NCBI GenBank assembly: GCA_964016885.1
Contig: OZ024742.1
Location: forward strand, 246,574,001-246,638,000
Reading direction: 5' to 3'
Length of the DNA: 64,000 nucleotides
Source of the DNA: Eledone cirrhosa
Taxonomy: Eukaryota
How positions within the stretch are numbered: the first letter of the stretch is position 1; each line of letters starts with the position of its first letter. A program made the position numbers and the translations under genes. The notes under the pieces were generated by a model, which saw only the letters and a program-made list of their open reading frames with translations, was not told the DNA's origin and did no database searches. Of this stretch, positions 4,202 to 61,180 are shown one piece after another.

Positions 4202-4959
4202 AATATATTGAGAAACACACAGATACATGCGGACACACATATATACATGAATATATCCCCATCCATCCTTGAGTTAATGGTGCCAACCTTAACCGATGTT
4301 GCTCTATGAATAACTGGGACAAACCAATCCGAATGGATTAGACTGAACCAGTATCAGAGCTAAAAGTACATTATGAAGAGAGAAGAAACATTTAGATATA
4401 ATTAGTAATAAGATGTATCATACTTAAACTGCTTCTAGATTCCTCGACTACGTAGTTTCGTGGCATAATCAAAAACAATACATCATAGAGATATAGAGCT
4501 TTTGTGAGGTCTGCCGACTTATCAAGAGGATACCTCATTTTACTAGCCTCAAGAACACGTCTATAAGATGTGAGATAGAATCCCAAAAGGCGGAGGGGGA
4601 GTCAGTCACGTGATACAACGGTCAAGAAACAGAGCTAAGCCCCTTATAACCCTGAAAAAAATACCACGGAGGCGGAGGGGGTATTTATATCGAGGCCGTA
4701 GAAGAAGTGATTAAGGAGGAGAGAAGTATGAGTAATGGCAGCTTTCCAGCAGTCACTACACTTCAAAGATTACTCGACCAGAGGGAGTTATAAACAATAT
4801 ATTGAGAAACACACAGATACATGCGGACACACACATATACATGAATATATCCACATCCATCCTTGAGTTAATGGTGCCAACCTTAACCAATGTTGCTCTA
4901 TGAATAACTGGGACAAACCAATCCGAATGGCTTAGACTGAACCAGTATCAGAGCTAAAA

Positions 4960-5889: not shown

Positions 5890-5900
5890 TATATATATAT

Positions 5901-6408
5901 TAGAATTGGCGCTCTGAAATAGCTATATATATATATGAATGTATATATAGTATATTTTGCAATACACAGTATGCTTAATTAAAAGCATTTCGAATACCTT
6001 ATGCTATTGTTTTAGAGTAGTGACATTCTCTCTTACTTTAAATTTTCAGCAAACAGGGGGAGATAAAGCTATGTTTCATACTGATTGGTACTTATCAAAG
6101 CCAAGTACCCCACCTGTTTGCTGAAAATCATGAATGTTTGATTCTTATAGAATTTCTAGTAATAATCAGGAACTGATTATACAGAGCGGTTGCCGGTCAA
6201 GCAGAAATTGAAAATTAGAATTGGCGCTCAGAAATAGCTATATATATATGAATGTATATATAGTGTATTTTGCATATATAGTGTATTCCCCCTGTTTGGT
6301 GAAAACTTAAAGTAAGTGAGACTGTCACTACTCTAAAACAATAGCATAAGGTCTTCGAAATGCTTTTAATTAAGCATACAGTGTATTGCAAAATACACTA
6401 TATATACA

Positions 6409-6413
<5 letters not shown>
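5901..6413 (-). mobile_element. Retrozyme-like family F: 314-bp tandem monomer on minus plus an inverted arm (~6288-6413)
   Basis: TTAGAATTGGCGCTC at 5901 and 6215; 6288-6413 is the reverse complement of ~5930-6058; degenerate TTGATAA HHR at 6067-6102 enclosed by TTTTCAGCAAACAGG/CCTGTTTGCTGAAAA; related to 60338-60915 and 17057-17235. Confidence 0.75.
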
Positions 6414-6468
<55 letters not shown>

Positions 6469-17056: not shown

Positions 17057-17235
17057 GTATATATAGTGTATTTTGCAATATACTTTATGCTTAATTAAAA
17101 GCATTTTGAAGACCTTCTGTTTGCTGAAATTAAAGTAAGTGGGTCTGTCACTACTCTAAAACAATAGCATAAGGTCTTCAAAATGCTTTTAATTAAGCAT
17201 AAGTGTATTGCAAAATACACTATATATACATTCAT
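17057..17235. mobile_element. Family F fold-back fragment
   Basis: Inverted arms matching 5940-6000 and 6290-6413. Confidence 0.75.
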
Positions 17236-17277
17236 ATATATATGGGTATTTCACACACCAACTCTAATATATATATA

Positions 17278-58336: not shown

Positions 58337-58409
58337 GGACACGTAAAATAGGGTGAAGCGAGCGAGACATGTAAACAAACATAGATGGTAAATATATATA
58401 TATATATAT

Positions 58410-59022
58410 TATGGCTGCCCCCTCGTTATCGAGTATGGCCATTACACGATATACCATTATTAATTAATTCTATCGTGCAATGCCTGTGCGTGAAAATATT
58501 TTTTAAAGTGAAGAAAGACTGTGCACTGCGCCAATCCCACTCTCTGAGCGACAGTAGCTATAACCCGAAAAGAAGATAAGATCAACATCATCGGTAACTA
58601 CTGAGCCGCAGGTTTTATATCGGAGTTATCCCAGTTTCCTGAGTTGCCTTCTCCTAGAAGAATGCCCTGACAAAGGTTAGGGGTCCTTCACTCCCAGTGG
58701 TTTAACCCTGCGATCGGGTGTCCAGCCCGACTATTTCTATGTCCCTGCGCATATACATACACATGCACCCATGTATATACACACATACATACATATGTAC
58801 ATGTGCATATACATATTTACACACTTTTGGATGGCCGTTGACTCTTATGAGTTCTTCCACCCTGTGTCAAGTGAAGTATTGTTTTTTGTCCTGCAGGATG
58901 TCAAAAATCACCCTCCTCACCAAGTAAACTTGGTGGGGTTGCCGGTTTAGTAGCCGACGACCTGACCATGCGACAGGTTATACTGGGTTACTTGTTACCA
59001 GTAGCACTCAAGAGTGACTCGA
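58410..59022 (-). mobile_element. Family E2
   Basis: Homologous to 24895-25540. Confidence 0.78.
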
Positions 59023-59042
59023 CATATATATATATATATATA

Positions 59043-59556
59043 TAAAATATTAAAAAAATAATGAATAAAACAATGAAACAGTTCCTTATATTAAACAAAA
59101 AAAGTTCATTATTTAACGATCGTTTCTAGGATATATATGTGTTAGAATTGGCATGCATATTCAACAGATCTATGTACAAAATTATACAAAATTATACAAA
59201 CTATCAAGATTAAATATACATACCAAACACACATATATGCCGTCTTCAGATATTTAATCTTGATAGTTTGTATAATTTTGTATAATTTTGTACATAGATC
59301 TGTTGAATATGCATGCCAATTCTAACACATATATATCCTAGAAACGATCGTTAAATAATGAACTTTTTTTGTTTAATATAAGGAACTGTTTCATTGTTTT
59401 ATTCATTATTTTTTTAATATTTTATCTTGACTCTGTATTCCGTTTATCTTTCACCGAAAGTGATTTTTCATTGCATCTCTTCTTTCCATGATATCCGGAC
59501 TACATTGAGTTCTTCATACGGATTGGACACTACCGTAAACTCTTGGTAGATTTATC

Positions 59557-59624: not shown

Positions 59625-59627
<3 letters not shown>

Positions 59628-60183
59628 TGGCTGCCAACTCGTTTTCGAGTATGGCCACTACTTTATATCCATGTAGGAGAAGTGTGACTTTTAGGTCCAG
59701 CCAGCGACTTGAAAACTCTGGTACAAACACTACACTTGTGACAATTATTGACACAAAGTGCTGGGCCCATAGTACCATGTGACGACAAGTGCAGAGAGAT
59801 CTCCAGATATAAAGCAATGCCGGTGCCGTGAAGCTTTTATAGTGAGAAAAGGCACTGCACAAAGCCAGTCCCACTCTCTTAACCAAGATGATATTTACCA
59901 AAAAGAAGAACAAGTCAACATCATTGGATACCATCAGGGTTGCAGGTGTTATATCAGAGTTTTCCTTCTAGAATTCTGCCTTGACAAAGGCTAAGGTGTC
60001 ATCTCTCCCGGTGATTTTGGATGGCCATTGACTCTTAAGAGCTCCTTTGCCCTTTGACAGGTTTTGTTTTTAGTCCTGCAGGATGTCCAAAGTCACCCTC
60101 CTCACCAAGAAACCTTGGTGGGGTTGCCAGTTTAGTCGCCAACGACCCGACCGTGAGACAGGTTGTACTGGGATACATGTTAC
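59625..60183 (-). mobile_element. Family E1
   Basis: Collinear with 5257-5830 apart from a ~24-bp deletion near 59680. Confidence 0.8.
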
Positions 60184-60337
60184 AATATATATATATACAT
60201 ACATATATACATATACATACATATATATATATATACATACATATATACATATACATACATATATACATACATATATATATATACATACATACACATATAT
60301 ATACATACATATATATATACATATATATATATATATA

Positions 60338-60915
60338 TTCTGCCGGACCGGCAACCGCTCTTTCAAACCAGTTCCTGTACACAGCTAAGTATTCTATAAG
60401 TCTCTAGCTGTGTCATTCTCGATAAAAGCACTGGATATGTAGTCCTGAAGATTTTTAACAAGAATGAAACGCGTAGATTACTTCCCTTGCTTTTATCGAG
60501 AATCTAATTGTAATACGTGACGTATTTTATTCTATAGCGATTAGGTCTTCAAAATGTTTATTATAAACATACAGAATATTTTCGAATATTCTATGTCTAT
60601 ATTCACATATATATCGCTATTTCAGAGCATTTATTCCAATTTCTAATTTCTGCCGGACCGGCAACCGCTCTTTCAAACCAGTTCCTGTACACAGCTAAGT
60701 ATTCTATAAGTCTCTAGCTGTGTCATTCTCGATAAAAGCACTGGATATGTAGTCCTGAAGATTTTTAACAAGAATGAAACGCGTAGATTACTTCCCTTGC
60801 TTTTATCGAGAATCTAATTGTAATACGTGACGTATTTTATTCTATAGCGATTAGGTCTTCAAAATGTTTATTATAAACATACAGAATATTTTCGAATATT
60901 CTATGTCTATATTCA
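60338..60915 (+). mobile_element. Tandem retrozyme-like element, 310-bp monomer x1.86, two intact HHRs
   Basis: GTAGTC-CTGAAGA-ttttt-aac-aagaat-GAAA-CGCG-TA-GATTAC at 60439-60481 and 60749-60791, enclosed by TTCTCGATAAAAGCA/TGCTTTTATCGAGAA. Confidence 0.9.
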
Positions 60916-61031
60916 TATATACATATATATGTATACATATATATGTATGTATATACATACATATATATATATGTATGTATATATGTATGTATATATATAT
61001 ACATACACATATACATACATGTATACATACA

Positions 61032-61075
<44 letters not shown>

Positions 61076-61180
61076 TGGGTATCACATAGGGATATTTGGA
61101 AGTGTTTACAATTCACAATTCAGTTTTTCACAAATAAGGCTCCTAATTTGAAAATGGTAGTTATTTCTCCCTTCATCTTC

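What the first reader, a model, noticed from the sequence alone, without database searches (positions are those of the whole stretch)
60338..60915. Apparently young tandem retrozyme with two identical intact hammerheads
Seen: two essentially identical 310-bp units, each with a minimal HHR (palindromic ACGCGT stem III, GUA site) locked by a 15-bp outer helix, with no ORF and (TA)n flanks. Established: metazoan non-LTR retrozymes are tandem HHR repeats of a few hundred nt that yield circular RNAs, and palindromic stem III permits dimeric cleavage. Inference: double cleavage would release a 310-nt monomer (60476-60785), likely mobilised by PLE proteins.
Basis: partly seen in the sequence, partly recalled or inferred. 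Interest (0 to 1): 0.7.

Follow-up and report, generated by a model that had tools for sequence, protein, structure and literature searches.

The report
Penelope-pasted hammerhead retrozyme, likely circle-copied
This is a short copy of a very abundant, young, protein-free jumping repeat carrying a hammerhead self-cutting-RNA motif; its thousand-plus insertions carry the footprint of Penelope-type enzymes and look as if each was copied many times over from one likely circular RNA, but cutting and circles are untested.

Summary
Real, and a new member of a known kind (animal non-LTR retrozyme). The window holds 1.87 units of a 310-bp non-coding repeat with two identical type I hammerheads; the predicted monomer is 60476-60785. 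The genome has 12,890 matches to the hammerhead pattern and 1,258 + 1,078 insertion ends in (TA)n. Most loci are head-to-head inverted arrays (12 of 15 position-ordered loci), up to 27+ units. Their two outer ends fall at two fixed unit positions about 35 nt apart, one per arm (34 of 38 fetched loci; 53 of 53 end pairs on contig C1): the Penelope 'tail'. Each array is essentially one haplotype, shared by both arms; no 5' truncation (0 of 76) lies at the cleavage site; array-wide variants keep the ribozyme helices paired. This favours rolling-circle copying of one circular monomer. Corrections: the hammerhead is canonical, not minimal; this copy is one-armed, 5'-truncated, and carries a rare helix II-weakening change with no descendants found. 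No RNA data; no partner Penelope found. The scan reported the same footprint for other retrozyme families before.

The parts
60185..60337 (.). Left (TA)n/(TACA)n microsatellite flank (insertion target)
   Evidence: family-wide (TA)n flanks
60338..60647 (+). Unit 1, 310 bp; its first base is the 5' truncation point of this insertion
   Evidence: 5' ends vary freely among loci
60415..60503 (+). Hammerhead 1 (type I): outer helix 60415-60430/60488-60503, helix I 60439-60444/60476-60481, core CUGAAGA 60445-60451, U.U mismatch plus 4-bp helix II 60452-60465, GAAA, CGCG loop, cleavage after 60475
60455..60455 (+). Rare variant (unit position 118): U.G instead of the family's C-G in helix II; same change at 60765
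60476..60785 (+). Predicted 310-nt monomer released by double cleavage; its two ends pair through helix I and the outer helix
   Evidence: predicted, not observed
60604..60640 (+). The 'tail': stretch between the two fixed 3' termini of the family (unit positions about 267-270 and 302-303), i.e. the two inferred reverse-transcription start sites
60648..60915 (+). Unit 2, 268 bp, identical to unit 1, ending at the family's short (tail-less) 3' terminus
60725..60813 (+). Hammerhead 2, identical to hammerhead 1; cleavage after 60785
60916..61076 (.). Right (TA)n-type microsatellite flank

Best explanation
This is a 5'-truncated, one-armed copy of a young, high-copy non-coding hammerhead repeat (an animal non-LTR retrozyme) that is likely inserted by a Penelope-like RT/endonuclease, likely copying one circular 310-nt RNA over and over. 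Steps: (1) arrays are transcribed (inferred); (2) neighbouring hammerheads pair their palindromic helix III and cut out 310-nt monomers, which are ligated into circles (inferred from the fold, from selection on it and from other retrozymes); (3) a PLE protein, probably a dimer, cuts both strands of a (TA)n or AT-rich target about 15 nt apart (TSDs shown at 2 loci) and each freed 3' end primes cDNA at one of two fixed sites 35 nt apart on the RNA, one site per strand (the end pattern is shown; the enzymology is inferred from PMC11167929); (4) each RT runs round the circle a variable number of times, and the two cDNAs are joined head to head, mostly over a few nt of microhomology (the product is shown; the circle is inferred). 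The window copy kept only the arm started at the short site, with 1.87 turns. It can release at most one monomer, and its weakened helix II makes that less likely than for typical copies (about 0.4-0.5).
For: Copy number: 12,890 ribozyme matches, control 0; 1,258 short and 1,078 tailed ends abutting TA. Two-armed head-to-head arrays: 12 of 15 position-ordered loci and 28 of 36 BLAST-picked loci. One short plus one tailed end: 34 of 38 two-armed loci, 3 unresolved, 1 exception; 53 of 53 outward-facing end pairs in the first 218 Mb of C1, none short-short or long-long (partly the same loci). This matches the PLE hallmarks in PMC8557442 and the two internal start sites with both-strand priming in PMC11167929. 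15-bp TSDs at the two non-TA targets L023 and L099. Single template: 278 of 345 units equal their own locus majority, 20 haplotypes in 40 loci, 0.53 differences within against 5.0 between loci, 84 of 90 within-locus variants are singletons; no variant is fixed in one arm and missing from the other in 46 loci. Not a linear cut monomer: 0 of 76 5' ends within 5 nt of the cleavage site (2.7 expected); 382 units cross the site with no unit-level indel. Ribozyme under selection: array-wide substitutions in helices keep pairing 8 of 8, single-unit ones 2 of 11 (p = 0.0007); across 10 family and sister sequences 17 of 29 pairs change on both sides, including C3-G8 to U3-A8 in 4 of 10.
Against: No RNA evidence of expression, cleavage or circles was obtained. 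No autonomous PLE carrying this unit as its terminal repeat was found among 80 GIY-YIG loci. In vitro, the anole PLE used uncleaved RNA and did not need its hammerhead (PMC11167929), and only 1 of 9 Xenopus retrozyme dimers cleaved (10.64898/2026.07.22.740005). Helix II pairs with probability 0.02 in this copy and about 0.15 in the family majority; helix III does not form in a single unit or in the folded dimer. Rfam gives no hammerhead match. Six variants recur within an array (L027 alternating; L029 and L043 seven units apart), which needs a multimer template or later local duplication. The 0 of 76 count is weak alone (2.7 expected). The selection test is small, not corrected for mutation type (4 of the 8 are A-to-G facing U) and none of either class's few core hits is decisive (0 fixed, 3 single). 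A homogeneous linear donor array also predicts homogeneous daughters.
Confidence: 0.68

Rival explanations
1. Same retrozyme and same PLE enzyme, but the template is a long, uncleaved read-through transcript of a homogeneous donor array; the hammerhead acts at another step or is only a protein-binding fold.
For: PMC11167929: uncleaved RNA is the main substrate in vitro and hammerhead mutants still insert. Weak helices II and III. Repeated variants inside L027, L029, L043. No 5' ends at the cleavage site fits this too.
Against: Long arrays fixed for private variants (L030 20 units, L050 21, L055 15, L043 17+) need a one-unit bottleneck followed by amplification; linear copying with 5' truncation can only shorten arrays. 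Core covariation C3-G8/U3-A8 points to catalysis.
Confidence: 0.2
2. Each insertion starts as one or two units per arm and grows afterwards by unequal exchange or slippage, as a dispersed minisatellite.
For: Variants repeated seven units apart in L029 and L043; this route is proposed in 10.64898/2026.07.22.740005.
Against: 84 of 90 within-locus variants are singletons (star-like), no arm-private fixed variant in 46 loci, and arrays are long although 98-100% identical across loci; older sister families mostly have short arrays.
Confidence: 0.08
3. The unit is just the terminal repeat (pLTR) of an autonomous PLE and the window copy is ordinary 3' debris of it.
For: It has every pLTR hallmark (hammerhead, tail, inverted arm); several Neptune-like and Penelope-type ORFs are in the genome; earlier scan notes reached this verdict for other loci (unchecked).
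Against: In the 51 loci of the family fetched, upstream of a unit lies another unit, the inversion junction or unrelated flank, never a shared body (L097 ends in a gap and L043 runs off the stretch). tblastn with 6 PLE proteins hit 11 of 140 family and sister loci, away from the arrays; 21 solo-looking sister copies share no upstream sequence apart from an inverted arm.
Confidence: 0.04

Closest known systems
Animal non-LTR retrozymes (Cervera and de la Pena 2020, PMC7229834, read parts 2-4 of 6; Li, Clavereau and Pollet 2026, bioRxiv 10.64898/2026.07.22.740005, read parts 1-3 of 5)
   Same: Tandem non-coding units of 150-450 bp, GC under 50% (34% here), a type I hammerhead in each unit, TSDs longer than 4 bp, co-occurrence with PLEs. 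Helix III is that of axolotl HHR_Amex1 (1 bp, palindromic tetraloop); the U.U mismatch under helix II is that of HHR_Amex2.
   Different: Unrelated sequence; both weak features combined in one ribozyme; long outer extension of helix I. The main texts of both papers do not describe inverted arms or a tail for retrozymes; their supplements could not be read. Circles were shown there and are untested here.
EN+ Penelope-like element insertions (PMC8557442, passages; PMC3846280, passages; PMC11167929, parts 1-2 of 4)
   Same: Inverted 5'-truncated copy head to head, 30-40-bp tail at one end only, (TA)n/AT-rich targets, TSD of about 9-15 bp, hammerhead some 130-165 nt upstream of the ends.
   Different: No RT/GIY-YIG ORF; the whole element is the repeat, with up to 27+ units per arm. 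PMC11167929 saw no strand difference in start-site use in vitro; here the two sites are strictly split between the two arms of one insertion. Short microhomology to the target is seen here at the ends.
Minimal hammerheads of metazoan PLEs (PMC4209133, parts 1-2 of 4)
   Same: Palindromic helix III suited to dimer cleavage; U3-A8 core variant occurs in sister families.
   Different: Here helix I is 6 bp with an internal loop and extension and helix II 4 bp, the canonical layout; min-HHRs have 4-5-bp helix I and 7-8-bp helix II.

Membership tests
Animal non-LTR retrozyme | Tandem units of about 150-450 bp | tested here: met
   310-bp period, 1 to 27+ units per locus
Animal non-LTR retrozyme | Type I hammerhead motif in each unit, at least two in a row | tested here: met
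   Full core twice in the window; covariation; Rfam models do not score it
Animal non-LTR retrozyme | No protein coding; no LTR, PBS or PPT organisation | tested here: met
   Longest ATG frame 30 codons; arrays consist of units only; PBS/PPT not searched for separately
Animal non-LTR retrozyme | Low GC; TSD longer than 4 bp when visible | tested here: met
   GC 33.5%; 15-bp TSDs at L023 and L099
Animal non-LTR retrozyme | Self-cleavage of the transcript | not testable with these tools
   Only indirect: selection on helices
Animal non-LTR retrozyme | Accumulates as linear and circular monomer RNA | not testable with these tools
PLE-mediated insertion | Inverted 5'-truncated arm | tested here: met
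   12 of 15 and 28 of 36 loci; absent from the window copy itself
PLE-mediated insertion | 30-40-bp tail at one end only | tested here: met
   34 of 38 loci; 53 of 53 end pairs
PLE-mediated insertion | (TA)n / AT-rich target preference | tested here: met
PLE-mediated insertion | Autonomous partner sharing the terminal sequence | tested here: inconclusive
   PLE ORFs up to 1,096 aa exist but none of 80 GIY-YIG loci, a small sample of a few families, carries this unit
Autonomous PLE (pLTR stub) | Repeat attached to an RT-GIY-YIG body | tested here: not met
Minimal HHR (PMC4209133) | Helix I 4-5 bp with ill-defined loop 1, helix II 7-8 bp | tested here: not met
   Helix I 6 bp plus extension, helix II 4 bp
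Canonical type I HHR | Loop 1-loop 2 tertiary contact | not tested
   An internal loop in helix I and a 4-nt loop 2 are present; the contact was not modelled

The most novel reading that the evidence does not exclude
The family is a genome-written record of the missing steps of retrozyme and Penelope transposition: a PLE dimer loads on one 310-nt RNA circle, primes from both cut target strands, one at each of two start sites 35 nt apart, and rolls round the circle in both arms. That would explain the tandem, the inversion and the one-sided tail of PLE insertions at once, with a 310-nt substrate small enough to test it directly.
Probability: 0.5. Interest if true: 0.68.

Novelty: new member of a known kind. 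Interest (0 to 1): 0.42.

Why it matters
That animal retrozymes are copied from circles by PLE enzymes is proposed in print but rests on co-occurrence and sequence kinship, and how PLEs make their tandem-plus-inverted, tailed insertions is called undefined in PMC8557442. This family, with over a thousand near-identical insertions, gives countable support: strict one-site-per-arm use of the two start sites and one haplotype per insertion. It offers a compact substrate for an in vitro PLE assay. The window copy itself is an unremarkable, probably dead-end stub.

Tried and rejected
Rfam scans: no hammerhead family scored; the weak miRNA and baculovirus hits are chance. Hit ends at query positions 48 and 261 looked like element ends but are edges of the search window (disproved). 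Partner hunt: PF01541 search, 20 extended loci, BLAST and a profile of 7 family/sister units over 50 loci, 30 loci of a Penelope-type family, 90 sister-family loci: no PLE with this end; sister copies next to PLEs at L058, L102, L116 are separate TA-flanked insertions. A decayed reading frame through the unit was considered and dropped (stops, 30 codons at most). Single-unit 118T and 190T variants in BLAST-picked loci are enriched by my query and were not read as hotspots; 118T was left out of the single-unit class. Dropped rows: L038, L046, L047, L052 in the haplotype counts (indel-rich or composite), plus L051; L046 and L047 in the end counts. Arm-majority haplotypes agreed in 23 of 30 loci; the 7 mismatches come from arms with one or two units carrying singletons. 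The '100 of 100 markers in both arms' figure is partly circular and is not used. No RNA or read evidence could be obtained, so expression and the local assembly stay open. Literature: retrozyme + inverted + head-to-head gave 0 papers, retrozyme + rolling circle reverse transcription 0, cephalopod + retrozyme only PMC8557442; cephalopod was my guess from genome features, the species was not determined. The supplement of PMC7229834 was unreadable and bioRxiv supplements are closed; either may show inverted retrozyme arrays.

Full report
Observation. The window holds a 310-bp tandem at 60338-60921 between microsatellites. 60338-60605 equals 60648-60915 exactly, so there are 1.87 units. Each has a full type I hammerhead core with a GUA site, cutting after 60475 and 60785, which would free 60476-60785. 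Helix I is 6 bp and continues over two internal loops into a 16-bp outer helix; helix II is 4 bp on a U.U mismatch; helix III is one A-U pair with a CGCG loop. By the definitions in PMC4209133 (parts 1-2 of 4 read) that is the canonical metazoan layout, not the minimal one. The monomer folds better than all 100 shuffles (z = -4.97), with its ends paired. Rfam does not recognise it. The longest ATG frame is 30 codons.

The family. The genome (G000, 3.0 Gb, species not determined) has 12,890 exact matches to the ribozyme pattern against 0 for the reversed control. I fetched 35 BLAST-picked loci and the first 15 loci on contig C1 listed by the pattern search. Arrays run from 1 to 27+ units at mostly 98-100% identity. 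12 of the 15 position-ordered loci and 28 of the 36 BLAST-picked loci (window included) are two arrays head to head, 3' ends pointing outwards. The 3' ends are fixed at two places, unit position about 267-270 and 302-303, and run into (TA)n. Of 38 two-armed loci, 34 have one end of each kind, 3 are cut by gaps or the edge of the stretch, and one (L087) has a 33-nt arm ending elsewhere. Genome-wide there are 1,258 short and 1,078 tailed ends next to TA. Among the 100 short and 84 tailed ends listed for the first 218 Mb of C1, all 53 outward-facing neighbours within 20 kb are short plus tailed (this overlaps the fetched loci). Two insertions outside TA show 15-bp TSDs that overlap the element ends by a few bases. 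The inner junction mostly overlaps by 1-6 nt.

These are the hallmarks of Penelope-like elements: inverted 5'-truncated copy, 30-40-bp tail at one end, microsatellite targets (PMC8557442, passages; PMC3846280, passages). A purified PLE protein nicks and extends both target strands and starts at two internal sites that bracket the tail (PMC11167929, parts 1-2 of 4). The window copy is the less common one-armed form, ending at the short site and truncated at unit position 1.

What was copied. In 40 loci with at least two near-complete units (4 noisy loci dropped), 278 of 345 units equal their own locus majority, while the loci fall into 20 haplotypes; mean differences are 0.53 within and 5.0 between loci, and 84 of 90 within-locus variants occur once. 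Private variants run through whole arrays and both arms (L030, L050, L055, L023, L032), and none is fixed in one arm only (46 loci). So each insertion came from one unit sequence. None of 76 5' ends lies within 5 nt of the cleavage site (2.7 expected) and 382 units cross it without a unit-level indel, so the template was not a linear cut monomer. A circle explains all of this; a homogeneous uncut multimer explains the homogeneity but not how rare variants come to fill long arrays. Six recurring variants (L027, L029, L043, L101) show some multimer templates or later duplication.

Is the ribozyme used? Array-wide substitutions in helices keep pairing in 8 of 8 cases, including a compensatory pair in L048, against 2 of 11 for single-unit changes (p = 0.0007; small, not corrected for mutation type). 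Older sister families share the layout at about 63-66% identity; over 10 sequences 91% of cells pair, 17 of 29 pairs change on both sides (0 of 500 shuffles; slid controls 2-6), and C3-G8 becomes U3-A8 in 4, a known core variant. Against: helices II and III are weak in silico, the anole PLE did not need cleavage in vitro, and 8 of 9 Xenopus dimers did not cleave. The axolotl ribozymes with the same two weaknesses cleave better as dimers (PMC7229834). The window copy is weaker still: U.G for C-G in helix II, 2.6 kcal/mol. That variant has 11 matches in the genome, and only here are two adjacent, so this copy shows no descendants.

Partner. Neptune-like and Penelope-type RT-GIY-YIG ORFs of up to 1,096 aa, some young, are present (clade names are my reading of the domain order and the CxxC motif). 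None of 80 loci examined carries this unit as its end, and no array is attached to a PLE body. The family is stand-alone and the partner is unnamed.

Known and new. It meets every testable criterion of animal non-LTR retrozymes (PMC7229834, parts 2-4 of 6; bioRxiv 10.64898/2026.07.22.740005, parts 1-3 of 5). Those papers propose circle templates and PLE enzymes; their main texts do not describe inverted arms or tails for retrozymes, and three searches found no paper that does; supplements were not readable. Verdict: new member of a known kind, with useful family-level evidence on mechanism; no RNA data. Interest 0.42.

Noticed in passing
window 5900-6410 and 17066-17266: Older sister-family retrozyme copies with the same two-armed, tailed layout; the hammerhead at 5900-6205 (minus) is degenerate.
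   Followed up: partly
window 59626-60183 (related: 58389-58998): A different dispersed 560-bp TA-flanked repeat directly upstream, 91-93% identical to copies in L033, L049, L054, L103.
   Followed up: partly
window 59042-59425: Perfect 176-nt inverted repeat with a 32-nt spacer; MITE-like or a head-to-head stub.
   Followed up: no
window 12748, 23320, 37170(-); 14211(-), 16780, 31852(-); 32282(-)/32344; 43072(-)/43152; 13547: At least five other hammerhead-motif families, two as head-to-head pairs; the 32282/32344 motif also lies 3' of PLE ORFs in L105, L106, L109, L115, L117.
   Followed up: partly
L102 about 3450 (minus), L103 about 6200; L057, L068, L119: Neptune-like PLE families whose 3' repeats carry a U3-A8 hammerhead with an ACCGGT palindrome, read by eye.
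   Followed up: no
L112 8168-9653: Four hammerheads at about 490-nt spacing with a microsatellite inside the period: another retrozyme family or a local duplication.
   Followed up: no
L031 flanks (4745-4760 and 6420-6445): About 11 nt of unique left flank reappear inverted in the right flank beyond the TA run.
   Followed up: no
L029 3185-6880, L043, L027: Variants repeated seven units apart (L029, L043) or alternating in both arms (L027): multimer templates, block duplication or assembly artefact.
   Followed up: partly
L038 and L055: A one-base insertion two bases after the cleavage site is fixed in all units of both arms.
   Followed up: no
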